Assembly: GCA_963666215.2 (NCBI GenBank)
Contig: CAXWPL010000005.1
Coordinates: 1,472,001 to 1,536,000, forward strand
Length of the DNA stretch: 64,000 bases
Direction: 5' to 3'
DNA from: Acidobacteriota bacterium
GTDB taxonomy: Bacteria > Acidobacteriota > UBA890 > WLXD01
The notes beneath the pieces are model-generated. The model ran no database searches and was not told the DNA's origin. It saw nothing but the letters and a program-made list of their open reading frames with translations. A program made the position numbers and the translations under genes. This document shows positions 47,789 through 64,000 of this stretch, piece by piece. How positions within the stretch are numbered: the first letter of the stretch is position 1; each line of letters starts with the position of its first letter.

Positions 47789-49793
47789 GGGTCGGCGCGG
47801 AAATAAGTTTCCAGTATCTGGGGTGACCATACCACTGCCCCCTTCTTCAGCCACCGCATAATCCTCCGGTACGCGCCTTGTTTGCAAGGTTTAGAGCTAG
47901 CATAGCCCTGCCCGCATTTGGTATAGTTTTCCCTGTCACCTCTTTTGGAAGGGGAACTATACCAAATGGTACGAGCCGAAGATCGTGATGCAACAGTGCG
48001 CGAGCTCTTGATGAGCGAACAAATGGCCACCATGGATGAGCTCAAGGACGCCATGGGAACCCGAGCCACCATGACGGTCTACCGTTCGCTGTCTCGATTG
48101 GGCTATTTGGCCAGCTACTCGGATCGAGGGCGGTTCTATACCTTGAACGAGATTCCCGATTTCGACGATCTGGGTTTGTGGTCGTGCGGTTCGGCGAGGT
48201 TCAGTCGGCATGGCAGCCTCCTCGAAACTGCGGTGGCTGCCGTGGACCGGTCCGCTGCCGGCTATACGGCTTCTGAACTCGAGCTCCTGCTGCAGGTCGA
48301 GGTCAAGCACGCGATGTTGCACCTCGTTCGTCGCAAGAGAATCGTACGATCCAGAGTTGGGAAGAGGTTCGTATACTTGTGCTCGGAAACAGGGCGCCGT
48401 CGTCAGCAGAAGCTGATGCGCAACGAACGGCAGGCTCTCCAGGATGTAGCTGCCAGCCTCGTTCCAGAAGTGCTCCCCGAGGAGCTCAGGGCTGCCATCG
48501 TTTTATTCTTCAGCCTGCTAGACGAACGCCAGCGGCGGCTCTTCGCTGGCCTGGAAGCGACCAAGCTCGGGCATGGCGGCGACCGGAAGATCGCCGATCT
48601 TCTGGACCTGGACCCTCATACAGTCGCAAAAGGACGTCGCGAGCTCTTCGGCGGCTCCGTGGAGCGCGGAAGAGTTCGAAGAGCAGGCGGTGGCAACCAA
48701 CGAGTGGAAAAAAAACGCCCGAGATAGTCGATGGAATCCATTCCATACTCGAGGCCGATATAGCTGGTGATCCCATGTCATCAAAAAGATGGACGCACGA
48801 GACCGCTGCAAAGGTGGCCCAATGCCTTGCCGAACGCCTTGACATCATCGTATCGGCTACGGTGGTGCGTCGATTGCTCGCAGACCTGAACTATTCCCTC
48901 AAGAGCAATAGGAAATGTCTGTCTTCGGGGAACTCCCCAGATCGTGATGCACAGTTCAAGGCCATCAAGCGACTGCGCGAGGATTTCACAAGCGCTGGCG
49001 ACCCGATCATCAGCGTCGATACGAAGAAGAAGGAGCTGATCGGTCGGTTCAAGAACCAGGGACAGACATGGTGCCGCGAGGCCAAGCGGGTCAAGGATCA
49101 CGACTTCCGGTCCGAAGCTCTCGCCATCGCCTCCCCCTATGGGATCTACGATCTTCAGAGGAACTTCGGCGTTCTCGTCCTCGGACAGTCGTCGGACACG
49201 CCGGAGTTCGCTGTCAACAGCATCGCGACCTGGTGGCTCAAATACGGTCGATCTCACTATCCGGCGTCTCAGCGTCTCCTCATTCTTGCCGACAGCGGCG
49301 CAAGCAACGGCGCACGGCTTCGAGCCTGGAAGAAGTACCTCCAGGAGAAGCTCGTAGACAAGTGCGGCCTCATCATCACCGTCGCCCACTATCCAACTGG
49401 CACCAGTAAATGGAATCCCATCGAGCACAGGATGTTCAGCGAGATCAGCAAGAACTGGGCCGGAGTTCCTCTCGAGAGTTTCGAGATCCTCGTCAACCTC
49501 GTCCGCAACACGACGACATCCACCGGACTGCGCGTCGAGCCGTGCCGTGATCAACGCCAATACCAGAAAGGAGTCAGGGTATCGGACAAGGAAATGCTGC
49601 AGCTCGCGGTGGCCAGGAGCGACTTCCTAGGAAAGTGGAACTACACCCTCTCGCCGAGACCGCGAACCGAGCAGGAAGAGCTTGCCCCACAGCCTGGGCT
49701 CAGCTCACCACCACCTCCAATGCAGCGACCGCCCTGTGGCGCCTCGGCCTCACACGCTCCGGCGATAATGTGAAGTTATTTCCGCGCCGACCC
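47789..49793 (+). mobile_element. ISAzo13-family IS; orfA 47966-48727 and orfB to 49773 joined by a probable -1 frameshift at an A8 run
   Basis: TIR GGGTCGGCGCGGAAATAA; TAA on both flanks; ISVDTKKKE, ADSGASNG and GTSKWNPIEHR. Confidence 0.92.
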
Positions 49794-50289
49794 TAAGAGG
49801 TGGCGCACATGTACGACATCGATGCCGAGTCCCGTAAGTACGTGCTCATAAGTGAGCTCGCGGTGACGGTCGCGCCTCCGCCGGTTGCTCCAAAGACGGG
49901 GAGGGCTCCACCGCGCGAGCTGGTCGATGCGGCCATCGACCGCCCACCTGTAGAGGCGCAGGGAGAACGGGTCGGCAATGAGCAGAAAGCACTCCCAGGT
50001 GCCCCCCACTTCGCCGAGGAGGTCCCGGGTGGTCTCCGAGACGCCACCCGGGGCCGTCATGTAGGACTAGGAGTAGGCGCTGCCTCAGCGGCTCCTCTGC
50101 TGGCCTCCCCAGAGAAAGATCGCGGCGAGCCCGAGTTAGGGCCGCCCCCTCACTCGGGGGCAGCTGGACACTGCGCTCGCGATGGGTGCGCCAAGTGCGC
50201 ATAGCGTCCCGGCCCGGCTCGACCAGCCAGTGCCGCACAGTGAGCTCTGCCGGTCCCAGAAAGCTGAGCAAGCTACGCCGAGAGCTCAT
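49794..50289 (-). pseudogene. N-terminal fragment of a GT4-like glycosyltransferase, frameshifted and cut by the ISAzo13 element
   Basis: RLLLVLH..GG.SETTRDL...IDVVHVRHL; coupled to the stop of the GT2 gene. Confidence 0.6.
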
Positions 50290-51146
50290 GCCGCTGCGCC
50301 TTCTCGTTCGAGGGCTGCGGCCAGGACCTCCCGCAGTTCGTCAAGGGGGTCGGCGGCCAGCCAGGCGGCCACCTGCCGCTCGTACTCTGGGTACAGTCTC
50401 CGCAACTTGCACGCCCCTCGCCTGACCAGCCACCTCTTCCGCCATCCCAAAGACGCGGAGCCGCGGTGAAAAACGAAGGTCCGATCATCCACCAGGTGAA
50501 CGAAGCCCCGGGCACTCGCCCGCATCGCGAAATCGTTCTCCTCGCCGCACCCTTCTGGAAACGCGTGCTCGTCGAAGAGGCCCACCTCGGTGAGAGCCTC
50601 GCGCCGCACCAGCATGCAGAACCCGTTGCCCGTGGGCACCTGCGGACAGAGCCACGGCGAAACCTCCTCAACCAGTCGCGCCATCCCGTCGACCCCAAGC
50701 GACTCCGGCACAGGGTTTCGCCCGTTGCGCACCGGTACCGAGAACGCACCCGCGGCGTTCGATACGGGAGTGACAGTCGCGACGCGAGGGAGGCTCCGCG
50801 CGGTCGCGCTGAGCTTCTCAAGCCAGCGCTGAGTCACCTGGGTGTCGCTGTTGAGTAAAACCACGTTGTCCTCTCCGGCGAGCCGGCAGCCGTGGTTCAC
50901 AGTCGCAGTATAGCCTCGGCGCCGATCGTGGCGCATAACAGCGATCGAAGTTCCCCGCGCCGTCTCGCGATCCCTGGTCGTCAACAGATATGGCCAGATG
51001 CGCCCGTCGCGGCTCGCGTCGTTCAGCAGCACGATTCGGTGCCGGGCCGCCGTGTGCCGTAGTAGGCTCGCGAGACATTTCCGCAAGTCTTCGAAGGCTC
51101 CGTGGATCGGCACCACCACAGTGACCCCCTCCGCTTCGAACTCCAC
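50286..51146 (-). CDS. GT2-family glycosyltransferase
   Basis: VVVPIH, NDASRD, LLNSD, VGLFDE and EENDF. Confidence 0.9.
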   Translation of the reverse strand: MEFEAEGVTVVVPIHGAFEDLRKCLASLLRHTAARHRIVLLNDASRDGRIWPYLLTTRDRETARGTSIAVMRHDRRRGYTATVNHGCRLAGEDNVVLLNSDTQVTQRWLEKLSATARSLPRVATVTPVSNAAGAFSVPVRNGRNPVPESLGVDGMARLVEEVSPWLCPQVPTGNGFCMLVRREALTEVGLFDEHAFPEGCGEENDFAMRASARGFVHLVDDRTFVFHRGSASLGWRKRWLVRRGACKLRRLYPEYERQVAAWLAADPLDELREVLAAALEREGAAA

Positions 51147-51532
51147 TGAAGATCGCTCCCCTGGACCGGTCGGATGCTACGGATATCGCACATGTGCCTC
51201 GCCGCGAAGGTAGATCCCAAGCCGAGGATGACTAACACAAAGAGCACCTCGTGGTGAGAGTCTCGACGCACCTCGCGCGGAGGAAGACCTTGCGACGTTG
51301 GCTCCTTAGGACTCTAACGCATGGGCGACACCATCACCAGCCGTACTGACGCCGAAGACACGTCTTGAGACCCGGCGCGACGCTGTTGTTTCCCTCGAGG
51401 GGGTCTCCCTCTGTTACCTGTCGCTCCTCAAAACAGATCCGCCTGTGAAATCAGCAGATTAGAGCGCGAGTCCTCACCCCTGGCGCGATTGGCTGTTGCG
51501 TCCCCGACCCGCTTTCATCAGTCTATACGGCC

Positions 51533-52587
51533 ATGACCAAGCTCTTCCTCATGCTAGTCACGATCGTTCTCCGAGCGCGCCGACTTGTCTTTCGGTCGCG
51601 GTCCGATCTTGTTCTAGAGAACGTCGCCTTGAAACAGCAGGTCGACGCGCTGAAGCAGAAGCGACCTGGCCCGCGACTCGACGACGCCGGTCGGGCCTTC
51701 TGGGTGGCGATGAGAAGAGTGTGGAGCGGCTGGGCCGAACGCCTCGTCATTGTGAAGCCGGAGACCGTAGTGAAGTGGCATCGTGAGCGTTTTCGGCGCT
51801 ACTGGACCGAGATCGCCCGACACAAGCGCTGCCCAGGGCGGCCGAGAGTTGAGGGGGAGATCCGCGAGTTGATCCGTAGGATGGCTCTGGAAAACAACTG
51901 GGGAGCTCCGCGGATTCACGGTGAACTGGAGAAGCTGGGCTTCAGCCTCTCCGAGGCGACCGTCTCCCGGTACATGCCGCGACGGCCGGCAGATCTCGAC
52001 GTCGTCCAACGGTGGTTGAGTTTCCTGCGCAACCACAAGGAATGCATCGCAGCGATGGACTTCTTCACCGTCCCGACCGCCTCGTTCGTGTTCTGTACTG
52101 CTGGTTCGTCATCCACCACGACCGACGACGGATCCTTCACTTCAACGCCACGTATAACCCGAGCTCTGCCTGGGTTATCCAGCAGCTGAGGGAGGCGTTC
52201 CCCTACGACACGGCACCGAGGTATCTGATCTTCGACCGCGACGCCATCTTCAGCAAGGCGGTGGCCGGGTTCGTCCGGTCGATGGGAACCAAGGTGTGTC
52301 GAACTGCCTATCGAAGCCCCTGGCAAAACCCTGTGGCAGAGCGCTGGATCGGTGGGTGCCGCCGCGAGCTCTTCGATCACGTGATCGTGGTCCACGAGCT
52401 GCACGCCATCCGGCTCGCCCGCGCCTACATCGACTACTTCCATGAGGACCGCACCCATCTCGGCCTCGGCAAGGACACGCCGTCTAGGCGACCAGTGACA
52501 CCGCCCCCGGCGCCGACCGCGAAGGTCGTCTCGATGCCTCGTGTCGGAGGGCTCCATCACCGATACGAGTGGCGCGAAGCCGCCTGA
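51533..52587 (+). pseudogene. rve integrase-core transposase, frameshifted near 52090
   Basis: WGAPRIHGELEKLG, MDFFTV, FDRD, PWQNPVAER and GGLHHRY spread over two frames. Confidence 0.85.
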
Positions 52588-52913
52588 ACGTGCGGGCCTC
52601 GGAGCGGCTCTCTCCACGGGCTGTCTTGAGGAAACAAAGCCTCACCTGGCCAGCGCTAGCGCACCTGTGAGAGTGATCAGGGTAGTTGATGGGATTCGCC
52701 TCTGTTCTAGTCACGGTAGTCGAGGGAAGAGCGTACTGGTCCCTCGGATAGCGTGATCAAAGCGGGCAAAAGAGCCGGCATCATCCGCGGCCACCGGGCG
52801 CGCCGTTGTTGTGGGGGGGGGAGTGAGGTGCCCTCCGGGGGTTGACGTCCCCTCGGAGGGCGTGTCTTCTTTCGTTGAATTTAAAAACGAAAGGACGAAA
52901 GGAGACAGCCCTC

Positions 52914-53480
52914 TTGTACCAGACCCTGCTTCAGGATGCCAGTTTCTACGATCTACTGCTGCGACTCGACGAGGATCTAGCGGAGAAGACTCGCGCCCTA
53001 GGCTGCGAATGCGGTGGGCGTTTGCACCAGGCTCACTATCCACGTAAGCCTCGCGGAGGGCCCGAGGAGCTGCGCAGAAGGACCTCGTTGCGGCTGAGCT
53101 ATTGCTGCTCGGTGGAGGGGTGCCGTCGTCGTCAGACGCCTGCGTCCTTTCGTTTTCTGGGCCGGAAGGTGTACTTCAGCGTGTTGGTACTTCTGGTCCC
53201 AGTGCTGCGGGAAGGGGCCAAGGGAGAGCGGCTGCATCGTCTACAGGAATTGTTTCAGGTGAGCGCACGTACGGTGCGCCGATGGCAGAGATGGTGGCGA
53301 GAGGACTTCGGTCTCAGCCCGGTCATGACTCGCTTTCAAGGCTTTCATGCCGAGCCGATCCAGCGGCAAGACTTGCCGGGCTCTCTGCTCCTAGTCTTTC
53401 GTCAATTGTCGCCGGCAGGCGAGAGGGTGCTGGCGGTGATTCGCGCCCTATTGGTCGGGCCCTCTGTGCTAGCTGTGTGA
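52914..53480 (+). CDS. Cys/His-rich putative Zn-binding and HTH protein
   Basis: CECGGRLH, CCSVEGCRRR and VSARTVRRW; TTG start with AAGGAG RBS. Confidence 0.75.
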   Translation: MYQTLLQDASFYDLLLRLDEDLAEKTRALGCECGGRLHQAHYPRKPRGGPEELRRRTSLRLSYCCSVEGCRRRQTPASFRFLGRKVYFSVLVLLVPVLREGAKGERLHRLQELFQVSARTVRRWQRWWREDFGLSPVMTRFQGFHAEPIQRQDLPGSLLLVFRQLSPAGERVLAVIRALLVGPSVLAV

Positions 53481-54071
53481 GGGTCGCCGGAAACCCGCAG
53501 AAGATGCGTCTCGACTCGCCGAGAAGCGGGCCTTAAGGTCTCTGTTCTCGCCGCCGATTGAAGGAATCGGCGCCCAGGAGAGGGAGATGAGCCATCGAGC
53601 CTCGACGCAACAACGCTGGGCGCAGTTTCGCTTCAGTGTGGTGGGTGAGCTGTTGGCTGCGCCTCCCGCACCGGGACATCTGCAGGTGGAATTGTCTCGA
53701 CTCTCCCAGAAGTGTTGATGGCTGCGAGAAAGCGCATCCCGTTGGCTGCGAGCGCAGTTTCCGGGATGGAGTGAGCTGAGGGCTTCGCGACCGCGGGAAA
53801 GCTAGGCCTTCTTCAGGAAGGGCGGCATCATCCCGCCGGAACGGCGGTCCGGGTGCGTGGTCCCGGCGGCGTGTTTGCGGTCGGAAGAGATGCGTGAGTC
53901 GGTGTAGGGCTTTGCAGTGCGGGCTCTGCTCTGATAGAGCAGGCCGACCAGAGACGGCGAGAGCCCGGGAAAGCGAAGTAGAAAACGCCCCGGGCTCTGC
54001 CCCAAACCGCAGCATTAGCTGCGCTTGCAGTATGGCAGAGAGTCGGGGTCGTCGTCGAATGGGAGGCGACG

Positions 54072-54467
54072 ATGCGACCGGACTACCGACTCTTCGACTG
54101 TGCTCGATGCCGTCGGCGTATCTCGCTGTGCTCGCACTGTGACCGTGGCCAGCGTTACTGCCGGGCTTGTGCTCTGGTGGCTCGTCGGGAATCGACTCGG
54201 GCGGCCGGCCATCGGTACCAGCGAAGCCTCCGAGGTCGGCATTGTCATGCCGCCCGTCAGGCCCGCTACCGTCGGCGCCAGCGCGAGCGGGCAGAGAAAG
54301 TGACGCATCAGGGTACCCCAGGCGGTACTTCGGGGAGGACACTGTGTCGGATCGAGACTCCGAGGCGCGAAGTGCGCTACGACCCGAGGAATCCGCGATG
54401 CATGCAGTGTGGAGAGGCCTGCCGAGAGTTTGTGCGAACGAGCTTTCGTCGTTGCCGACGGAGATAG
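54072..54467 (+). CDS. Basic Cys-rich putative Zn-finger accessory protein
   Basis: CARC, CSHC, RYCRAC and CMQC motifs; stops 4 nt before istA. Confidence 0.7.
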   Translation: MRPDYRLFDCARCRRRISLCSHCDRGQRYCRACALVARRESTRAAGHRYQRSLRGRHCHAARQARYRRRQRERAEKVTHQGTPGGTSGRTLCRIETPRREVRYDPRNPRCMQCGEACREFVRTSFRRCRRR

Positions 54468-54471
54468 GGGC

Positions 54472-55980
54472 GTGATCGACGCACAGCTGCGCGGGGAGAT
54501 CCGTCGTCTGTTCCTGGTCGAGAAGTGGAAAGTCGGCACGATCGCTCGACAGCTACAGCTGCACCCCTCAACCGTGCGCCGGGCGCTGGAGAAGTCCGGC
54601 GTGCTACCCCAGCAGCGACGAGGGAGGATGATCGATCCTTACCTGCCGTTCATCGAGCAGGTGCTCGGGACCTACCCACGACTGCCGGCGAGCCGTCTCT
54701 ACACCATGGTGGTGGAGCGCGGCTATCCAGGAGGCCCGGATCAGTTTCGCCACCTGGTGGCCTCGATGCGACCGAAGCCCCAGCGCGAGGCGTTTCTCTC
54801 GCTGCGCATGCTGCCAGGAGAGCAGGCGCAGGTCGACTGGGGCCACTTCGGTCGGCTCCGCGTCGGCCGGGCACATCGTCGGCTCTATGCCTTCGTCTTC
54901 GTGCTGTCGTTCTCGCGCACGGTCTTCGTGCACTTCACCCTCGACACTCGTCTCGAAACCTTCTTGCACGCTCACCAGCTGGCCTTCCACTACGTCGACG
55001 GCGTCGTCAGGACCGTTCTGTACGACAACCTGCGAACCGCGGTGATCGAGCGGCAGGGAACCGCGGTGCGCTTCCATCCCGTGCTGCTCGATTTCGCCAG
55101 CCACTACGGCTTCCTTCCCACCGTCGCCGCGGTGGCTCGGGGAAATGAGAAAGGCCGCGTCGAGCGCGCAATCCGCTTCCTGCGAAGCTCGTTCTTCGGC
55201 GCCCGAACGGTGAGCGATTTGGATCGTCTGAATCGGCAGGTCCTGGAATGGTGCCAGAGGTCGCAGCGCAGACCCTGGCCGCAGGACCGACAGCGAACCG
55301 TGAAAAGCGCCCTGGCCCAGGAACGACCTCGACTGCTTGAGCTTCCCGGAGACGACTTCGAAACCGACCTGCGACTGGAGATCAAGGTCAGAAAGACGCC
55401 GATCGTGCGCTTCGACCTCAACGACTACTCGGTGCCGCACAGTCATGTGCAGAGGACCGTCACGCTCCTCGCCAGCGAGCATCGGGTGCGGATCCTCGAT
55501 GGCCAGGAGCTCCTCGCCGAGCACCCTCGCTCGTACTCCCGGGGCGAGCAGATCCTCGATCCTCAACACCTCGAGGAGCTCCTCGCTCACAAACGCAGGG
55601 CCCGACGACACCGGGGCTTCCATCGGCTGTTTTCCGCTGTGCCTCGATGCGAAGAGCTGATGCAGCAGCTCGCCGAGCGAGGCGAGAACCTCGGAACGCA
55701 GACCGCCGGCCTGCTCCGACTCCTGCGCCAGTACGGCCCCCAGCGACTCGACAAAGCCGTGCGCGAAGCGCTCCTGAACCACGCACCGCGATTCCAGTCC
55801 GTCCGGCTCCTACTCGAACGGCACCAGCGCGGCCTCGGTCAGCCCCCGGCTTTACCGGTGCCGCTCAGCCAGGAGCTCCAACAGCGAGATCTCTCCGTGA
55901 GACCGCACAACCTCGAGGACTACGACCAACTTGGAGGCAACGACGATGGCCCGACCCAGGAAGAGTCCAACGATCCCTGA
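54472..55980 (+). CDS. istA: IS21 transposase
   Basis: PGEQAQVDWG, YDN and KGRVER; N-terminal HTH. Confidence 0.93.
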   Translation: MIDAQLRGEIRRLFLVEKWKVGTIARQLQLHPSTVRRALEKSGVLPQQRRGRMIDPYLPFIEQVLGTYPRLPASRLYTMVVERGYPGGPDQFRHLVASMRPKPQREAFLSLRMLPGEQAQVDWGHFGRLRVGRAHRRLYAFVFVLSFSRTVFVHFTLDTRLETFLHAHQLAFHYVDGVVRTVLYDNLRTAVIERQGTAVRFHPVLLDFASHYGFLPTVAAVARGNEKGRVERAIRFLRSSFFGARTVSDLDRLNRQVLEWCQRSQRRPWPQDRQRTVKSALAQERPRLLELPGDDFETDLRLEIKVRKTPIVRFDLNDYSVPHSHVQRTVTLLASEHRVRILDGQELLAEHPRSYSRGEQILDPQHLEELLAHKRRARRHRGFHRLFSAVPRCEELMQQLAERGENLGTQTAGLLRLLRQYGPQRLDKAVREALLNHAPRFQSVRLLLERHQRGLGQPPALPVPLSQELQQRDLSVRPHNLEDYDQLGGNDDGPTQEESNDP

Positions 55981-56740
55981 CGAACCACTACGAGAGCTCG
56001 CCCGATCCCTCGGCTTCTACGCCCTCGTCGACGACTGGGGCACCTACCGAGAACAGCCCTGGCTCGAACAGCTGCTGCGCAAAGAAGAGGCCGAGCGCAA
56101 ACGGCGCAGCCTCGAACGGCGCATCCGCACCAGCCGCGTCGGGCTCTTCAAGAGCATCGCCGACTTCGACTTCTCCTGGCCCCAGCGCATCGACCGCGAG
56201 CAGATCCAGGATCTGCTCACCCTCCAATTCCTCGACGACATCACCAACGTCATCCTCCTCGGACCCAACGGTGTCGGCAAGACCATGATTGCCAAGAACC
56301 TCCTCTACCAGGCGCTGCAACGAGGGGCCACCGCCAGCTTCGTCACCGCCTCCGACATGCTCAACGATCTCGCCGTCCAGGAAACCCCCTCGGCGCTCCA
56401 GAGAAGGCTCTCCAAATACACCCGACCCTCGCTTTTGGCAATCGATGAGCTCGGCTATCTCTCCTACGACCACCGCCACGCGGATCTCCTCTTCGAGGTC
56501 GTCTCCAGGAGATACGGCAACAAGCCCATTCTTCTCACCACCAACAAGCCCTTCGCCGAATGGGCCGAGGTCTTTCCCAACGCCTCCTGCGTCGTCACTC
56601 TCGTCGATCGACTCACCCACCACGCCGAGATCGTCAAGATCGAGGCTAACTCCTATCGCCGCAAGGAGGCCAAGGAGGCTGCTGAAAAAAAGGCCAAGGA
56701 CCGCGCCAAAAGGCGGAGCGCAGCACGACGACGCTCATGA
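55946..56740 (+). CDS. istB: IS21 helper ATPase
   Basis: FDF, GPNGVGKT, IDELGY, TTN and DRLTHH. Confidence 0.95.
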   Translation: MARPRKSPTIPDEPLRELARSLGFYALVDDWGTYREQPWLEQLLRKEEAERKRRSLERRIRTSRVGLFKSIADFDFSWPQRIDREQIQDLLTLQFLDDITNVILLGPNGVGKTMIAKNLLYQALQRGATASFVTASDMLNDLAVQETPSALQRRLSKYTRPSLLAIDELGYLSYDHRHADLLFEVVSRRYGNKPILLTTNKPFAEWAEVFPNASCVVTLVDRLTHHAEIVKIEANSYRRKEAKEAAEKKAKDRAKRRSAARRRS

Positions 56741-57093
56741 CCCGAAGCCACTATCGGCGCCAGCTCCTCCGCCTCTATCGACTCCTTCCCGACACCCCGC
56801 ACCGCTTCCACCACGGCGACCGCGTCATCGTCGACCAGCTCTTCGACCAAGACCTGCCTCTCACCGTCCTCCAGGCCGCCCTCCTCCTCGGCTCCGCCCG
56901 ACGCGCATGCCGAGATCCGCGCCTACCAAAGCTCCAGCCCATCCGATCCCTCGCCTACTTTCTCCCCATCCTCCGAGAACTCCCCACGACGCCACCCCCC
57001 GAGGGGTACCTCGACTATCTGCGCCACACCCTGAGTCACGCCTCGCGGGGACAAAAAACCGACTCGCAGCCAACTAAGTGCGCTTTCTCGTAG
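56737..57093 (+). CDS. Small accessory protein (IRSLAYFLP motif)
   Basis: ATGA overlap with istB; homologous to 59242-59589. Confidence 0.8.
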   Translation: MTRSHYRRQLLRLYRLLPDTPHRFHHGDRVIVDQLFDQDLPLTVLQAALLLGSARRACRDPRLPKLQPIRSLAYFLPILRELPTTPPPEGYLDYLRHTLSHASRGQKTDSQPTKCAFS

Positions 57094-58403
57094 CCGGTAA
57101 CACAGAAGGCCTGGCGCCATCCGATCACGGAGAAGGCGGTGTACTTTGCCCGCTCGACGATTGAGCGTTGGTACTACACGGCCCTGGCCGGTCGCGATCC
57201 GATCGGGGCGCTACAACGCCGATCGAGAAGCGACAGCGGCCAAGCGCGCGCCATCCCAACCCGGATCGCCGAGCTGATCCACACGCAATACAAGGCCCAC
57301 CCGACGTGGAGCTACCAGCTCCATTGGGACAATCTGGACGTGGTGCTAAAAGAGCGACCGGAGCCAGGGAAGGTGCCTTCCTACTCCACCCTGCGCCGCT
57401 TCATGATCGCGCACGGTTGGCCCAAACAACGACGCACGAAGGGAAAGGATCGCAGCACTGCCTCCGGTGCCCCTGCGCGCGAGAAGCGCAGCTACGAAGC
57501 CGAGTACGTCAACGGGCTCTGGCACCTCGACTTCCACCACGGCTCGCGCAAGATCCCGAGCTCCGCAGGGACCTGGGAAGTACCGATGCTGCTGGCGATT
57601 CTCGACGATCACTCCCGGCTCACCTGCCATCTGCAGTGGTATCTGCACGAGACCGCCGAGTGTCTGATCCACGCTCTGATCCAAGCCTTCATCAAACGCG
57701 GACTGTGCCGCTCACTGCTCACCGATAACGGCAGCGCCATGATCGCCGACGAGACCACCGAGGGGCTCCTACGCCTCTCCGTCGTCCATCGCACCACATT
57801 GCCCCGGAGCCCCTATCAAAACGGGAAACAAGAAAACTTCTTCTCTCGAGTCGAATCCCGCCTCCTCGCCATGCTCGAAGGACACGCGGATCTCAATCTG
57901 GCATTGCTCAATGAGGCGACGCTGGCTTGGGTGGAGATGGAGTATCACCGCAGCGTCCATTCCGAGACCGGCCAGACGCCGCTCGACCGCTTTCTCGAGG
58001 GTCCCTCCGTCTCTCGGATCTGCCCCAGCCTGGACGAGCTGCGCTTCGCCTTCACCGCCGCTCGAAAGCGCACCCAGCGCCAAAGCGACGGCACCATCAG
58101 TCTTGACGGCACCCGTTTCGAGATCCCCTCTCGTTTCCATCATCTCAACCGGATCTCGGTGCGATACCAGAGCTGGGAGAAAAGCTCCGTCTTCATGGTC
58201 GACGAAAGCTCCGACGTCCCACTCGAGCGCCTCTACCCCATCGACAAGGCAAGAAACGCTTCCGGCATCCGCCGCCCGATCCAACCCCAGAGCACCGACG
58301 AGCCGACAGGCCCGGAGCCTGGCATCGCACCCCTACTCCGCAAACACATGGCGGAGTACGCCGCCACCGGGCTCCCGCCCGCCTACCTCAAAAAGGAGAC
58401 ACC

Positions 58404-59249
58404 GTGAACAACCAGAAACTACTGGCACTCTTCGGACTCAAATGGAACCCCTTTACCCCCAACATCCCCGTCGAAGCGCTGTGGCGACACCCGCATCTCG
58501 ACCACTTCTGCTGGCGCCTGGAGACCCTCGTCCACGACGGTGGCTTCGCATTGATCTCCGGTGATCCCGGCACCGGCAAGTCGGTCGCTCTACGCACCCT
58601 CGCTCACCACCTTCAACACCTGCCCGACCTGCGCACCGGAGTCCTCACGCGGCCACAGAGCAGTCTCGCCGACTTTTACCGTGAGCTCGGACAGCTCTTC
58701 GGGGTCCCGCTCAATCCACACAACCGATGGGCCGGATTCAAAGCCCTCCGACAGACCTGGCTCTCCCATGTCGATGCCACCCATCAAAGACCCGTACTCT
58801 TGATCGACGAAGCACAGGAGCTCGCCGCCAACGTGCTGGCCGAACTGCGCATCCTCGCCTCTGCGGACTTCGACTCACGCTCCATCCTCACCGTCGTCCT
58901 GTGCGGCGACTCCCGACTCACACAGCTCTTCCGACGAGACGATTTCCTACCCGTCGCCAGCCGCATCCGCGTACGCCTCCTCCTCCTCGACTACCTGCCC
59001 CCAGAGACGTTGGCCGAATGGCTCCAGCACTCCCTGACACAAGCCGGAAACCCCAGTCTCCTCGACCACGAGGTCATCACCACTCTCGCCGAGCACGCCG
59101 CCGGAAACCTCAGAGTACTCGCACACATGGCCAACGAGCTCCTCGCCATGGCCGCCAAAGAAGAGCTACCCAACATCGATCAGAAGCTCTACCTCGAGGT
59201 CTTCTCGCCACCTACCTCCCAGCGCTCTCCCAGGAAAGCCCGTGCCTGA
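58404..59249 (+). CDS. ExeA/TnsC-like AAA+ ATPase
   Basis: FGLKWNPF, GDPGTGKS, IDEAQ, SRI and GNLR; GTGA overlap with the transposase. Confidence 0.9.
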   Translation: MNNQKLLALFGLKWNPFTPNIPVEALWRHPHLDHFCWRLETLVHDGGFALISGDPGTGKSVALRTLAHHLQHLPDLRTGVLTRPQSSLADFYRELGQLFGVPLNPHNRWAGFKALRQTWLSHVDATHQRPVLLIDEAQELAANVLAELRILASADFDSRSILTVVLCGDSRLTQLFRRDDFLPVASRIRVRLLLLDYLPPETLAEWLQHSLTQAGNPSLLDHEVITTLAEHAAGNLRVLAHMANELLAMAAKEELPNIDQKLYLEVFSPPTSQRSPRKARA

Positions 59250-59589
59250 CTCCCCATCCGCCCAGCAACAACGACGGCACCTCCAGAGCGTCCTCGAGCT
59301 CTATCGACGACATCCCCAAACCACCGGACGAGTCAGAAACGCCGATCGCCGCCTCGCCGTAGACCTCTATCGAAACGGCGTTACCCTCGACACCATCAAC
59401 GCTGCCTTACTACTCGTCGCCGCCAGGAGATGCAACGAGGCACACACCACAACCCCCATCCAGAGTCTCCACTACTTCCTCCCCGTCATCCGAGAGATTC
59501 GCGATAGACCCCTCGATAACGGCTACCTCCGGTACCTTGAAACTCTCATCCGCGACAGCAGCCAAGACCCAGACCATCATTTACTGTGA
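59242..59589 (+). CDS. Small accessory protein (IQSLHYFLP motif)
   Basis: Overlaps the ATPase stop; homologous to 56737-57093. Confidence 0.8.
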   Translation: MPDSPSAQQQRRHLQSVLELYRRHPQTTGRVRNADRRLAVDLYRNGVTLDTINAALLLVAARRCNEAHTTTPIQSLHYFLPVIREIRDRPLDNGYLRYLETLIRDSSQDPDHHLL

Positions 59590-59929
59590 TCAGCCCGCCA
59601 TCGATTACCGTGATCACTCTCACACCTGCACCGCGCGAGAGAATCGTTCACCATATCATTCCTACCGATTCTCGCGGTAGATGAGGCCGACTGCCGTTCT
59701 GAGCGAACCTCCAGCGTCGACCCTGTCGGCAGACGAGTATTGAGGAGGCACAAGTTAGATATCGTAGCTCATGGCTCGGAGGCCTGAGCGAGACACGAAT
59801 TTTCACAGGAAAACCGGACCCGCTAAACGTAGCGGCCCAAAATGCACCTAGTCCTGGATTCCTTACCGCCGGGGCGTCCGCCGTCTTGACACTCCTTTCA
59901 AGATTCGGCAAATCTGGTGTCACACAGAC

Positions 59930-61683
59930 TTGATGAAGCTGCTCAAGGCCTCCTATCTCGCCCTCAAGGCTGCGGTGGCGCGCGTCACCAGTAATGACTC
60001 CGCGTATGCCATCTACGCTCTGGTAGTCATACTGTCGGTGCTTGCCGTGAAGTTGTGGCTTGCGTCGAGCGTCGAAGCTTCGGGCTTGTTTGCCGACGAC
60101 TACGACTACCTGAATAAGAGCGTCTCCTACGTTCGCGGAGATTTCGAATTCGCGGACTACCCCTTTTACAACCACGCGGCAGGCATCTTGTATCCGATCC
60201 TCATCTCGTTTTGGCAGCTGGTCTCCGCGCCCGAATGGCGGATGTTCGTGGTCATCGTTGTAAATGGGATCAGCGCTGGGATTGCGGGGCTCGCCATGTG
60301 TGCAACCGTAAAGAAGGTCACGCCGGTCCGTTCTCTGTGGCTACCGCTGGTCGTGGCGACGCTCCCCTGCGTCTTCGTCTTTTCGTTCTTTGCGCTCACC
60401 GAGAATCTCCTCTTCGCCGTCGTGGCCCTCGTCATGCTTCTGATGGTCCATGTTGAGTGTGCATTCGAGACGAAGTGGTGGATTCCACTGGTCGTCATTG
60501 GGGTCGCTGCCGCGCCACTGATACGCGCCCCGGGGCCTGGCCCTCTTGCCCGCCGTGTTGGTTGTATTCGTCCTGCAGCTCAAGCGTTGGGGTCGCGAGA
60601 AGGTTGCCGGCCTCAGCGTCGTAACCATCGTCGTAACCGGCGCCTTCTACGCGTTCCAGGTGAATGCTCTGCCGATGGCAAACGCCGTGTCGACCCGTGA
60701 AGCCTTGTACCTCCAGTCGTTGCCCGATCTGATCGACAGCCCAGCTGACCTCCTGACCCTCATCAAGATGGCTCTCAACCAGGGCACCTATCTGATGATC
60801 AGCACCGGGTTCCTCCCCGCCCTGTTCTTCGTCATGGGTGCGTGGACACGGGACAAGAGCGAGTCGGCCCATCTCCGGCGAGTGGTCGCGGCGTTTGCGG
60901 GAACGACCATCGCCGCATTCGTTGCCTTCGGGATGCTGCACCTGACCCGGAAGTTCGGTATGGACCCTGGGTCCGCAACATTCATCTACGGACGCTACAA
61001 CGACCCGGCGACGCTACCCTTGCTCGTGTCCGGCCTCACCGTGATGATGGGACGACGGGAGTTTTCGAAGCTCCAACAGATCTTCCTGCGGGTCGGAGCC
61101 CCGCTACTCATCGCCTTGGCGTTGGCCCGGGTGTTGGGATCGAGTTGGTGGTCAGTGAACTCCGCCGGGCTGCTGTTTCTCCCAAGTCGCGCGACGTATT
61201 CACTGTACGCCGTCCTTCCACTGCTGGTCGGAGTGGCCGTGTTTCTGCAGCTCCCGGTTCGCAAGCTCGTCAGGTTCGCGCTGCCGGCCATTGTTGTTCT
61301 CAGCGTGGTCGCCATCTGGAACGCGAACAAGCTGGTCCAGTATCGTTCGGAACGGATCGCTTACGCCACCGCAGGAGCGCGTTGGATACATGAAAACGTC
61401 GGAACGGACAGCTGCATAGGCGACGACATCCGCGTCTCACACAGTCCCGCTCCAGGGGCGCTCAAGAGCATGTGCAACGTAAACCGCGCCATGCGCTTTC
61501 TCACACACCCGATCCCCTACGAGACTTTTGATCCGGCCGGCGAGGAATTCCCCTGCCCGTACATCTACACGCTTACGACAGCGCTGCGCTATCGCCACTG
61601 GCAACCTGCGTGGGCGAACGACGACTACGTTCTGTATCGTATAGGAGGCGGCCTGGATCGTTCGCTGAACTTTCCAGACGAAC
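59930..61683 (+). pseudogene. Polytopic membrane protein (GT-C-like), frameshifted near 60540 and interrupted by IS30
   Basis: DDYDY loop, LYP, LTENL and GRY; many TM segments over two frames. Confidence 0.6.
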
Positions 61684-64000
61684 GGCGGATTCAACTGGTC
61701 GTCGCAACATCTCGTGATGGAGGTGTTTCGATGGGAGTTGGCAAGTGTCAGGGTGCGATTCGAGCGATGCGTGGCCAGATGCGGTTACCTGGCCGGCCCT
61801 CGACAGCGCGGCGCGAGGACCGGATCCGGTTCTGGGAGACGATCGCTCGTGGGGCGTCCAGCGAGGACGCCGCAACAGAGGCTGGGGTGTCGCCGGCTGT
61901 CGGGTCGAGATGGTTCAGGCAAGCTGGTGGAATGCGACCTATCTCGTTGGCTCCGGTGTCGGGGCGTTATCTGTCGTTCGCCGAGCGTGAAGAGATCGCC
62001 ATCCTTCACGCTCAGCATGTTGGGGTACGTGAGATCGCTCGACGCCTGGGTCGTTCACCGTCGACGATTTCGCGGGAGCTGCGCCGCAACGCGTCGACTC
62101 GCAGCCGTGCCGTAACTTATCGGGCAACGACTGCGCAGTGGCACGCGGAGCGGCGCGCCAGCCGTCCGAAGGTCTCCAAGCTTGCCGCGAACGACGCCTT
62201 GCGTGAGTACGTGCAGAACCGCCTCGCCGGCGTGATCGCAAGGCCTGACGGGGAGCTGGTGCCGGGTCCGGATGTGCGTTGGATCGGCCGCCGGCACGGC
62301 CGTCGCCAGGATCGGCGTTGGGCGAAATCCTGGAGTCCGGAGCCGATCTCGAACCGGCTTCGGATGGATTTCCCCCATAATGAGTCGATGCGGATCTCTC
62401 ACGAGGCGATCTACCAAGCGCTCTACATCCAAGGTCAAGGAGCCCTCAAACGCGAGCTCGTCGCGTGCCTGCGAACCGGGCGAGCGCTACGAGTGCCGCA
62501 TGCGCGAACCCGGGGGCGAGGCAAGAAATTTGTGACTCCGGAGATCATGATCAGCGAACGCCCCGCCGAAGCCGGCGACAGGGCCGTGCCGGGTCACTGG
62601 GAAGGCGACCTGATCGTCGGGCTCGAGAGCTCAGCGATCGGGACCCTCGTCGAACGGACTACGCGGTTCACGATGCTGCTGCACCTGCCCCGCATGGAAG
62701 GTCACGGTAGCGAATCGAGGGTGAAGAACGGGCCGGCGCTCGCCGGGCACGGCGCCGAAGCCGTCCGTGACGCGATCGCGGCGTCGATCACCACGCTGCC
62801 CGAGCAGCTCCGCCGGTCCTTGACCTGGGACCAGGGCGCCGAGATGGCGCAACACGCTCAACTCCGCGTCGATACCGGCCTCGCGATCTACTTCTGCGAC
62901 CCGCACAGCCCCTGGCAGCGGGGCACCAACGAGAACACCAACGGACTGCTACGCCAGTACTTCCCGAAGGGCACCGACCTTGTCAGATACTCCTGCGGCG
63001 ACCTCGCCGCGGTCGCGCTCGCCCTCAACGGCCGACCTCGCAAGACCCTCGGCTGGAGAACCCCTGCCGAAGTCTTCGATGAGTTTGTACACTCTGCTCA
63101 CCAAGGCAACGCTGCGACGACTCCTTGAACCTAAGCAGTACGCCTCGAAGGCTTACCAGGATCGGCTGGCTGAGCTGCGGTTTCGCTGCAGCATGTCCGG
63201 CGTCGGAAATTGTCATGACAATGCGGTCTTGGAGAGCTTCTTCGACAGTCTCAAGACCGAGATCTGGGACCGACCCTTCGAGACTCGTCAGCGAGCTCAC
63301 GACGAAGCGGTTTCTTACCTCGAAGTGTTCTACGACCTGAGACGCCAGTATTCGACGCTCGGATTCCTCAGCCCCGAGGCCTTCGAAGGGGCAGCGTGAA
63401 CTCACGTGCGACCGGCGGCCGGATCCGAAGGGAGGCTGCGCTCCCCGAACCTCCCACAGCCTCGTCCGAAGCTGACTACCCGAACTGATGCAGAGTAGGA
63501 ACTGCCCCGATGGGGCTTAACTTGGTGTCCACGAAACCGTGACCGCTCAGAACCCCTGCCGAAGTCTTCGATGAGCTTGTACACTCTGCTCACCAAGGCA
63601 ACGTTGCGACGACCCCTTGAACCCAATCAATACGCCTCGAAGGCTTACCAGGATCGCCTGGCTGAGCTGCGGTTTCGCTGCAGCATGTCGGGCGTCGGAA
63701 ACTGTTACGACAATGCGGTCTTGGAGAGCTTTTTCGACACTCTCAAGACCGAGGCCTGGGACCGACCCTTCGAGACTCGGCAGCGAGCTCACGACGAAGC
63801 GGTTTCTTACCTCGAAGGGTTCTACAACCTGAGACGCCAGCACTCGACGCTCGGATTCCTCAGCCCCGCGGCCTTCGAAAGGGCAGCGTGAACTCACGCG
63901 CGACCGGCGGACGGATCCGAAGGGAGGCTGCGCTCCCCGAACCTCGCACAGCCTCGTCCGAACCTGACTACCCGAACTGATGCAGAATAGGAACTGCCCC
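61684..64000 (+). mobile_element. IS30-family element (intact transposase 61731-63128) with at least two tandem 492-bp tails, running off the window
   Basis: Near-identical to 26452-28394; IRRs end at 63135 and 63627; a further unit continues to the window end. Confidence 0.9.

What the first reader, a model, noticed from the sequence alone, without database searches (positions are those of the whole stretch)
52668..59622. Two different transposon types share a four-gene module ending in a homologous ~115-aa IxSLxYFLP protein
Seen: both the IS21 (53713-57102) and its host Mu/TnsB-ExeA element read Cys-rich ORF, DDE transposase, AAA+ ATPase, small ORF overlapping the ATPase stop and abutting the right TIR. 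The two small ORFs align: L.LYR.P.T..R...D..L...AALLL..ARR...PI.SL.YFLP...E....P...GYL.YL. Known: canonical IS21 has only istA and istB, while Tn7-like elements add target selectors such as the Zn-binding TniQ. Inference: this is a portable accessory factor coupled to transposon ATPases. It could be a target-selection or replication-coupling adaptor, since the motif recalls DnaD/phage-initiator C-terminal domains and IstB is DnaC/DnaA-related.
Basis: partly seen in the sequence, partly recalled or inferred. Interest (0 to 1): 0.85.

Follow-up and report, generated by a model that had tools for sequence, protein, structure and literature searches.

The report
Extra conserved gene in IS21 transposons
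Two nested jumping genes of different types each end in a related small gene from a very large, unnamed protein family that normally sits right behind the helper ATPase of IS21-type elements, and its job is not yet known.

Summary
A 3390-bp IS21 element (53713-57102) sits inside the transposase gene of a second element (about 52661-59629). Each ends in a ~115-aa ORF that overlaps the stop of its AAA+ ATPase gene. The two ORFs are 39% identical (E 4e-17). The transposases, ATPases and Cys-rich first ORFs of the two elements show no detectable similarity, so one gene is shared, not a four-gene module.

The small ORF belongs to a large family without a Pfam or NCBIfam model: 1145 clusters at 50% identity. 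In 173 of 188 fetched loci it lies just downstream of an ATPase gene: IstB in 169, the AAA_22 type in 4. dN/dS is 0.19, against 0.14 for IstB. A long form adds an N-terminal winged helix. One IS21 subgroup also carries a ParB-like gene.

The closest relatives of the outer element lack the ORF, and its copy nests among IS21-linked ones in a weakly resolved tree, so it was probably captured from IS21.

Function is unproven. My best guess is an accessory factor that works with the transposition ATPase. DnaD and TniQ membership were tested by sequence and not met.

The parts
52661..52692 (.). Left terminal inverted repeat of the outer (rve + AAA_22) element
   Evidence: It pairs with 59598-59629: 32 nt, 84% complementary. 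The TGTGAGAGTGATCA core starts at 52666.
52842..53480 (+). First ORF of the outer element: 212 aa, Cys-rich, with an HTH
   Evidence: ORF. HTH_23 at E 2.6e-5, 24.4 bits, just under the 24.6 cut-off. No similarity to the IS21 Cys ORF (E 2.9, profile E 4.2).
53587..53712 (+). 5' part (42 codons) of the outer transposase gene, cut off by the IS21 insertion
   Evidence: Read. It is in frame with 57109-58407 once the IS and one duplication copy are discounted; I checked this by coordinate arithmetic and built no joined sequence for it.
53713..57102 (+). Complete IS21-family element, 3390 bp, four ORFs
   Evidence: Inverted repeats of 41 nt. CAGAAG duplication at 53707-53712 and 57103-57108. In another genome, 20 of 23 loci hold full-length copies at 99.94-100% identity with different flanks. 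A 5-6 bp duplication is present at 16 of 18 insertions.
54072..54467 (+). Cys-rich ORF of the IS21, 131 aa
   Evidence: ORF. No Pfam or NCBIfam hit. Homologues lie upstream of istA in 64 of the 80 genome-contig loci.
54409..55980 (+). istA, the IS21 transposase, 523 aa
   Evidence: NF033546 at 244.8 bits (cut-off 160); rve and Mu-transpos_C_2 domains.
55931..56740 (+). istB, the IS21 helper AAA+ ATPase, 269 aa
   Evidence: PF01695 at 211.4 bits; NF038214 at 210.6 bits (cut-off 200).
56737..57093 (+). Small ORF of the IS21, 118 aa, member of the unnamed family
   Evidence: ATGA overlap with the istB stop. No Pfam or NCBIfam hit. Family profile E 6e-62. The ORF ends inside the right inverted repeat 57063-57102.
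57109..58407 (+). Remainder of the outer transposase gene (ORF called from GTG 57139, 422 aa)
   Evidence: rve at E 2.1e-9. Best NCBIfam model is IS481 at 123 bits, below its 224 cut-off.
58404..59249 (+). AAA_22-type ATPase of the outer element, 281 aa
   Evidence: PF13401 at 80.4 bits (cut-off 27). No similarity to IstB (E 0.29).
59242..59589 (+). Small ORF of the outer element, 115 aa, same family as 56737-57093
   Evidence: 39% identity, E 4e-17. It overlaps the ATPase stop by 8 nt. Its last codons are encoded by the inner subterminal repeat at 59574-59592.
59598..59629 (.). Right terminal inverted repeat of the outer element
   Evidence: The end ...CGTGATCACTCTCA is conserved in four metagenome relatives, and similarity stops there.

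Best explanation
Shown: the two small ORFs are members of one large, so far unnamed protein family of about 100 residues, with no conserved cysteine. The family is the conserved last gene of a big subgroup of IS21-family insertion sequences. Its start lies at, or overlaps, the istB stop, and its end runs into the right terminal repeat. These IS21 elements move as four-gene units.

Inferred: one lineage of an unrelated two-gene transposon (rve transposase plus AAA_22 ATPase) acquired the gene from IS21 and placed it in the same position behind its own ATPase. The window happens to hold one element of each kind, one nested inside the other.

Inferred mechanism: the protein is an element-encoded accessory transposition factor that is made together with the AAA+ regulator and acts with it. 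It could be an adaptor that controls where or when the ATPase assembles on target DNA, which would affect target choice, immunity or activation of the transposase. In the long form, an added N-terminal winged helix would supply DNA recognition.
For: Homology and family size:
- Pairwise E 4e-17.
- 101 clusters at 90% identity.
- 1145 cluster representatives at 50% identity with E <= 1e-3, and 459 with E <= 1e-10.

Linkage to an ATPase gene:
- 173 of 188 loci have an ATPase gene directly upstream on the same strand: 169 IstB and 4 AAA_22. Eight loci had too little upstream sequence to tell and 7 had none.
- Many loci are copies of one IS, so they are not independent.
- In 38 of 89 distinct IstB/small-ORF pairs the genes overlap by 4 nt. 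The start codons were picked by my script.

Selection: median dN/dS is 0.186, against 0.135 for IstB in the same 146 pairs. 144 of the 146 pairs are below 0.5.

Mobility as a unit: 20 of 23 loci in another genome hold full 3390-bp copies at 99.94-100% identity with different flanks. A 5-6 bp duplication is present at 16 of 18 insertions.

The gene is an accessory, not core:
- No hit in 72,556 plasmid records.
- Two other IS21 elements of the same genome lack it.
- The four closest relatives of the outer ATPase (50-58% identity) have no family member downstream, even at hmmsearch E <= 10.

The AAA_22-linked form is a real lineage: four metagenome contigs carry the same ATPase type and the same conserved right end.

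Direction of transfer: the AAA_22-linked ORFs fall inside a clade of 26 rows, 22 of them linked to IS21 subgroup 2, with SH-aLRT support of 94.

Link to DNA binding and to IstB: the long forms carry a winged helix, with HTH_36 below threshold in 5 of 8. One copy is fused in frame to IstB.
Against: - There is no experimental or structural evidence for any activity.
- IstB and the AAA_22 ATPase share no detectable sequence similarity. A direct, specific contact with both would need adaptation, which argues instead for a partner common to both systems: DNA or a host factor.
- The single IstB fusion (L095) is 1 of 6 copies in that genome and may be a frameshift.
- Co-inheritance inside one mobile unit explains linkage and purifying selection equally well for a regulator or an addiction-type passenger.
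- The tree rests on 112 columns, with 45 of 100 inner branches unresolved. Only 2 AAA_22-linked rows were in it, and they do not group together.
- The one metatranscriptome contig that matched covers istB only, not the small ORF.
Confidence: 0.55

Rival explanations
1. The protein is an autoregulator. It binds DNA at the element's own end or promoter and represses transposase expression or end synapsis, giving copy-number control in the way small IS-encoded inhibitors do.
For: - The long forms carry an N-terminal winged helix of the HTH_36/MarR/Crp type.
- Arginines at positions 55 and 56 of the short form are invariant or nearly so.
- The gene overlaps the right terminal repeat.
- The element reaches 23 loci in one genome, so control would matter.
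Against: - The short form lacks the winged helix.
- A site-specific repressor would not transfer easily to an element with unrelated ends unless its site moved too.
- No repeated operator-like motif was sought or found.
Confidence: 0.2
2. The protein is a replication-type adaptor related to DnaD and phage replisome organisers. It partners the DnaC-like IstB to recruit or load host replication or repair proteins at the strand-transfer product.
For: - The long form has the architecture winged helix plus C-terminal helical domain next to an IstB-family ATPase.
- Phage 80alpha shows the same pairing: an HTH_36-like plus Phg_2220_C organiser followed by a DnaC that matches PF01695.
- The second-nearest named Atlas cluster is 'Replication initiation and membrane attachment domain-containing protein', at score 0.76, which is a lead only.
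- RepB_primase_C gives weak hits in 10 of 58 members, best E 0.0016.
Against: - DnaB_2 (PF07261) hits 0 of 58 members at E <= 1, none of the 8 long forms and nothing in the window's genome.
- The phylum-wide PF07261 hits whose sequences I read look like NusA N-termini, not this family. The NusA label is my recall.
- hhalign gives a probability of 0.1-0.2% against a thin DnaB_2 profile, and 0.04-0.6% against the 80alpha organiser.
- tblastn of a long form against 50,697 phage records finds nothing at E <= 1.
Confidence: 0.1
3. The gene is a passenger unrelated to transposition, for example an anti-defence or addiction function that hitch-hikes in the element.
For: - There is no recognisable transposition domain.
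- The gene is dispensable in many IS21 elements and in the outer element's nearest relatives.
- The slot behind the ATPase holds other unrelated ORFs in relatives L201-L205.
Against: - The gene is kept in the same slot, often overlapping the ATPase stop, across IS21 lineages whose IstB proteins are only 39-65% identical.
- It is under selection as strong as that on IstB.
- It is almost never found away from an ATPase gene.
- PHROGs gives no consistent hit. PADLOC was not searched.
Confidence: 0.1

Closest known systems
IS21 family insertion sequences (istA transposase plus istB AAA+ helper)
   Same: The inner element passes NCBI's IstA and IstB models above their cut-offs. It has terminal inverted repeats and makes 5-6 bp target duplications.
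   Different: It has four genes instead of two: a Cys-rich ORF before istA and the ~115-aa ORF after istB. A related subgroup has five genes, adding a ParB-like one. In my literature searches I found no description of these extra genes. ISfinder and TnPedia could not be consulted.
TniQ/TnsD-type target selectors of Tn5053 and Tn7-like elements
   Same: The gene position is the same: directly after the AAA+ regulator gene, in the order transposase, ATPase, small ORF. It is also an accessory that some relatives lack.
   Different: There is no PF06527 hit (0 of 2 at E <= 0.1; 0 of 58 at E <= 1). No cysteine is conserved. The short form is only about 100 residues long.
DnaD / phage replisome organiser paired with a DnaC/DnaI-type loader
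   Same: The long form combines a winged helix with a helical C-terminal domain and lies next to an IstB-family ATPase, like the 80alpha organiser and its DnaC.
   Different: The gene order is reversed. No DnaB_2 or Phg_2220_C hit was found. Profile-profile comparisons were negative.
Two-gene rve + AAA_22 (ExeA/TniB-like) transposons
   Same: The outer element has an rve transposase followed by an AAA_22 ATPase between inverted repeats. Relatives with 50-58% identical ATPases exist in the phylum.
   Different: This lineage carries the IS21-type small ORF and a Cys/HTH first ORF. Its nearest relatives have other ORFs, or none, behind the ATPase. The family name is my own description and was not checked against ISfinder.

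Membership tests
IS21 family (inner element) | IstA transposase above NCBI's curated cut-off | tested here: met
   NF033546 at 244.8 bits against a cut-off of 160.
IS21 family (inner element) | IstB helper ATPase above the curated cut-off | tested here: met
   NF038214 at 210.6 bits against a cut-off of 200; PF01695 at 211.4 bits.
IS21 family (inner element) | Terminal inverted repeats and a short target duplication | tested here: met
   41-nt repeats, 80% complementary. A 5-6 bp duplication at 16 of 18 insertions.
IS21 family (inner element) | Only two genes, istA and istB (the canonical make-up, recalled) | tested here: not met
   The element has four ORFs. The two extra ones are conserved in relatives: the Cys ORF in 64 of the 80 genome-contig loci, and the small ORF by construction of the search.
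TniQ (PF06527) | Match to the family model | tested here: not met
   Not among the hits of either small ORF at E <= 0.1, nor of 58 members at E <= 1.
TniQ (PF06527) | Zinc-binding cysteines (recalled feature) | tested here: not met
   No cysteine is among the invariant or nearly invariant columns of the 58-member alignment.
TniQ (PF06527) | Gene directly downstream of the AAA+ regulator gene | tested here: met
   173 of 188 loci.
DnaD-like domain (DnaB_2, PF07261) | Match to the family model | tested here: not met
   0 of 58 members at E <= 1, 0 of 8 long forms, and no hit in the window's genome at E <= 0.01, while the control genomes rang.
DnaD-like domain (DnaB_2, PF07261) | Profile-profile similarity to bona fide DnaB_2 domains | tested here: inconclusive
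   hhalign probability is 0.1-0.2% against a profile built from the phage A118 and phi11 proteins plus near-identical Listeria sequences. That template is thin (Neff 2.8), so a distant relationship could be missed.
DnaD-like domain (DnaB_2, PF07261) | Fold of the DnaD C-terminal domain | not testable with these tools
Tn7/Mu-type TnsB transposase (outer element) | Mu-transposase C-terminal domain and a TnsB-like model match | tested here: not met
   Only rve, HTH_32, rve_3 and rva_4 were hit. The best NCBIfam model is IS481 at 123 bits, below its 224 cut-off.
AAA_22 ATPases (outer element) | Match to PF13401 above its cut-off | tested here: met
   80.4 bits against a cut-off of 27.

The most novel reading that the evidence does not exclude
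The family is the transposon counterpart of a replisome organiser. Under this reading some IS21 lineages keep, or regained, an initiator-like partner for the DnaC-like IstB. In its full form this partner is a winged helix plus a helical domain; in the short form it is reduced to the helical domain. The ATPase would then be directed to particular DNA structures or to the host replication machinery. The same plug-in was taken over by an unrelated AAA_22-dependent transposon, which would mean it reads something common to both systems: target DNA or a host factor, rather than the ATPase itself.
Probability: 0.12. Interest if true: 0.85.

Novelty: new variant of a known kind. Interest (0 to 1): 0.6.

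Why it matters
IS21 is currently a structural model for how an AAA+ ATPase controls a transposase, and the model has two proteins. I know this only from the search listings and the opening lines of the abstracts of PMC11208146, PMC10122671 and PMC12486865.

Here a very large environmental branch of the family, found mainly in Acidobacteriota MAGs and soil or sediment metagenomes, carries extra conserved genes. One is held under selection as tight as that on IstB, and one has crossed into a different transposon family.

If this protein steers or gates the ATPase, it would be a third component of the IS21 machinery and a simple system for studying target choice. If it does not, it is still an unannotated family of more than a thousand clusters that marks a distinct IS21 subgroup. 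A family model would improve annotation of these genomes.

Tried and rejected
- Complex prediction of IstB with the small ORF (alignments A5 and A6) was busy and declared unavailable. Nothing was folded.
- The Atlas does not hold the window's protein. For the stored homologue P0091 it has no model and returns only unnamed neighbours. The named-cluster search gave scores of 0.81 and 0.76, which are leads only.

Searches for a known relative that gave nothing usable:
- PDB sequence search with the family profile returned one chance hit at E 0.64.
- PHROGs gave no consistent hit.

Attempts to obtain DnaD sequences:
- PF07261 found nothing in the window's genome, nothing in five phage records, and only sub-threshold hits (12.5 bits) in one of two Firmicute plasmids.
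- The phylum-wide hits whose sequences I read look like NusA N-termini, a label from recall.
- PF07261 did hit phages A118 and phi11. My last big protein search, seeded with A118, listed only near-identical Listeria proteins: 120 of 930 hits, with 21 distinct domain strings. The DnaB_2 profile therefore stayed thin.
- PF22448 rang nowhere, not even in the control genomes.

Context of the outer element's relatives:
- Wider regions of three relatives showed no homologue of the outer Cys/HTH ORF. At least one of these elements is truncated, so I draw no conclusion from this.

Expression:
- One metatranscriptome contig of 247 nt lies on istB (56352-56598). Nothing was laid on the small ORF, and two other RNA runs laid nothing. 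This is not evidence for or against expression.

Considered and rejected:
- The small ORF as a chance frame over conserved end DNA. It is rejected by dN/dS of 0.19 and by protein-level conservation down to ~35% identity.
- The outer element's right end as a captured IS21 end. Its repeats match its own left end, not the IS21 ends.

Unpublished genomes: G049 supplied locus L104, one of the 8 long-form sequences used, and L220. G024 appears only in the hit list. No conclusion depends on them alone.

Supplementary files of papers were not consulted. None seemed to bear on the claims.

Full report
**Anatomy of the two elements**

The inner one is a 3390-bp IS21-family element at 53713-57102.
- It has 41-nt terminal inverted repeats and a CAGAAG duplication on both sides.
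- It encodes a Cys-rich 131-aa ORF, IstA, IstB and a 118-aa ORF.
- The 118-aa ORF starts in an ATGA overlap with the istB stop and ends inside the right repeat.

The IS21 interrupts the transposase gene of an outer element bounded by 32-nt repeats at 52661-52692 and 59598-59629.
- By coordinate arithmetic, the first 42 codons (53587-53712) are in frame with 57109-58407 once the IS and one duplication copy are discounted.
- The outer element encodes a Cys/HTH ORF, an rve transposase, an AAA_22 ATPase and a 115-aa ORF that overlaps the ATPase stop by 8 nt.

**What the two elements share**

The two small ORFs are 39% identical over 95 residues, E 4e-17. Nothing else is detectably shared.
- BLASTP gives E 2.9 for the Cys ORFs, 1.2 for the transposases and 0.29 for the ATPases.
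- A profile of 49 IS21 Cys-ORF segments scores the outer first ORF at E 4.2.
- The outer transposase is nearest to IS481-type models and is below their cut-off. It lacks the Mu-type C-terminal domain that IstA has.

The common layout is therefore an analogy for three of the four genes and true homology for only the last one.

**The protein family**

Neither small ORF matches Pfam or NCBIfam.
- A two-sequence profile finds 101 clusters at 90% identity.
- It finds 1145 representatives of 50%-identity clusters at E <= 1e-3, and 459 at E <= 1e-10.
- Those that carry a name are called 'hypothetical protein', and none has a precomputed Pfam domain.
- In a 58-member alignment, D28, A48, R55, Y74 and F75 are invariant and thirteen further positions are nearly so. 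No cysteine is among them.

**Where the family sits**

I fetched three sets of loci:
- the best 80 of 257 confirmed matches in species-representative genomes;
- 28 loci from a sample of 401 genomes of the same phylum, in which 20 genomes had a match;
- the best 80 of 385 confirmed matches in metagenome contigs, queried with the outer-type subfamily.

Of these 188 loci, 169 have an istB gene directly upstream on the same strand and 4 have an AAA_22 gene of the outer type. Eight had too little upstream sequence to tell, and 7 had no ATPase gene. The seven include one internal-deletion derivative and five solo copies with no transposase or ATPase gene detected around them. Loci are not independent, because many are copies of one IS. 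Among 89 distinct IstB/small-ORF pairs, 38 overlap by exactly 4 nt, with starts chosen by my script.

The hosts named in the records are mostly Acidobacteriota MAGs, with a few contigs binned to other phyla. There is no tblastn hit in 72,556 plasmid records. Two other IS21 elements in the window's own genome lack the gene.

**It is a selected gene that moves with the element**

Median dN/dS is 0.186, against 0.135 for IstB in the same 146 locus pairs, and 144 of the 146 are below 0.5. The window's IS occurs three times in its own genome. In a Thermoanaerobaculia MAG, 20 of 23 loci hold full-length copies at 99.94-100% nucleotide identity with different flanks. A 5-6 bp duplication is present at 16 of 18 insertions.

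**Variants of the element and of the protein**

The Cys-rich ORF accompanies the small ORF in 64 of the 80 genome loci.

A divergent IS21 subgroup has five genes. Nine contigs were inspected. The Pfam evidence for a ParB-like gene (ParB_N, HTH_ParB, KorB) comes from three contigs that I scanned. The gene order in this subgroup is:
1. a Cys ORF;
2. the ParB-like gene;
3. istA;
4. istB;
5. the small ORF.

In eight genomes of the phylum sample the gene behind istB is 226-263 aa long. Its C-terminal half matches the family profile at E 1e-17 to 1e-29. Its N-terminal half is a winged helix, with HTH_36 below cut-off in 5 of 8 plus Crp- and MarR-type hits. This long form is itself abundant: 681 hits, with the 120 listed all at E <= 1e-89. 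One copy, L095, is fused in frame to IstB, while other copies in that genome are not.

**Origin of the outer element's copy**

Four metagenome contigs (L115, L137, L142, L146) carry the small ORF behind an ATPase of the outer type. They share the right end of the window's element, including two subterminal repeats. The inner repeat encodes the last residues of the ORF.

In contrast, the four closest relatives of the outer ATPase in the phylum sample (50-58% identity) have no family member downstream, even at E <= 10. Instead they have another ORF overlapping the ATPase stop.

In a quick maximum-likelihood tree, the short forms separate from the long forms with support of 100. The two AAA_22-linked rows lie in a 26-row clade dominated by IS21 subgroup 2, with SH-aLRT support of 94. 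The tree uses only 112 columns, and 45 of 100 inner branches are unresolved. The two AAA_22 rows do not group together. Capture from IS21 is therefore the likely direction, but it is not proven.

**Function**

Nothing here shows what the protein does. The facts that bear on function are these:
- fixed placement and frequent overlap with the ATPase gene;
- selection as strong as on IstB;
- conserved arginines;
- a DNA-binding-type domain added in the long form;
- transfer between systems whose ATPases are unrelated in sequence;
- dispensability in many relatives.

I read this as an accessory factor that works with the AAA+ regulator, possibly in target choice or in the timing of assembly, and I put that at about 0.55. 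An autoregulator, a replication-type adaptor and an unrelated passenger remain open.

TniQ: only the gene position matches. There is no model hit and no conserved cysteine.

DnaD:
- The DnaB_2 model hits no member.
- Its hits elsewhere in the phylum look like NusA N-termini, a label from recall.
- hhalign against the profile I could assemble from phages A118 and phi11, and against the 80alpha organiser, is negative. That template was thin, so the result is weak.
- Still pointing that way are the long-form architecture next to an IstB-family ATPase, which mirrors the 80alpha organiser and its DnaC, an Atlas feature score of 0.76 to a cluster with the DnaB_2 name, and weak RepB_primase_C hits in 10 of 58 members. 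These are leads, not tests.

**Literature**

Four full-text searches and passages of PMC3281130 gave no description of a third or fourth IS21 gene of this kind. In that paper 'additional ORFs' refers to ORFs besides the transposase gene, a make-up it calls typical of IS21 and IS66. ISfinder and TnPedia were not available, so I claim only that these searches found nothing.

**Verdict**

It is wrong about a shared four-gene module and unsupported on DnaD and TniQ kinship. I rate this a new variant of a known kind.

Noticed in passing
L116, L117, L120, L131, L132, L138, L144, L148, L151 (metagenome contigs): A divergent IS21 subgroup carries five genes: a ~145-180 aa Cys-rich ORF, a ParB-like gene (ParB_N, HTH_ParB, KorB hits), istA, istB and the small ORF.
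   Followed up: partly
L096, L097, L099, L103, L104, L110, L112, L113; L095: A long form of the family (226-263 aa) has an N-terminal winged helix. In L095 it is fused in frame to IstB in a 538-aa open frame. L104 comes from the unpublished genome G049.
   Followed up: partly
L035:3764-4647: The IS21-type Cys ORF directly abuts the small ORF with no istA or istB between them. This looks like an internal-deletion derivative of the element.
   Followed up: no
window 59574-59624 and L115, L137, L142, L146: The right end of the outer element has two direct subterminal repeats (CCATCnnTTAnCGTGAnCA). The inner one also encodes the conserved C-terminal residues and the stop of the small ORF, so this stretch is dual-use sequence.
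   Followed up: partly
L201-L205: In relatives of the outer element, the slot behind the ATPase gene holds other ORFs that also overlap its stop. In L201-L203 it is a longer ORF that looks RecA/AAA_25-like to my eye (not tested). In L204 and L205 it is an unrelated small ORF.
   Followed up: no
window 47945-52587 and 60546-63848: The surroundings are rich in IS elements. There is an ISAzo13-type transposase (48379-49773, PF07592, E 6e-111) and an IS3-like pair of ORFs (51533-52587). An 860-aa frame joins a membrane-protein-like N-terminal part (read by eye) to an HTH_38 + rve transposase (60546-63128). Two 300-nt direct repeats, 93% alike, carry an rve_2 fragment (63057-63356 and 63549-63848).
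   Followed up: partly
L230-L237 (phylum sample): The Pfam DnaB_2 model scores above its cut-off on the N-terminus of ~550-600-aa proteins that read like NusA (my recall). This is a likely false positive of that model in Acidobacteriota.
   Followed up: no
L010, L011, L013, L018 (OY761158.1): Stretches 86-89% identical to the outer element's right end lie within a few kb of IS21 copies in three loci. One IS21 copy (L010) is flanked by a 12-nt stretch resembling that end, so the two element types may meet repeatedly.
   Followed up: no
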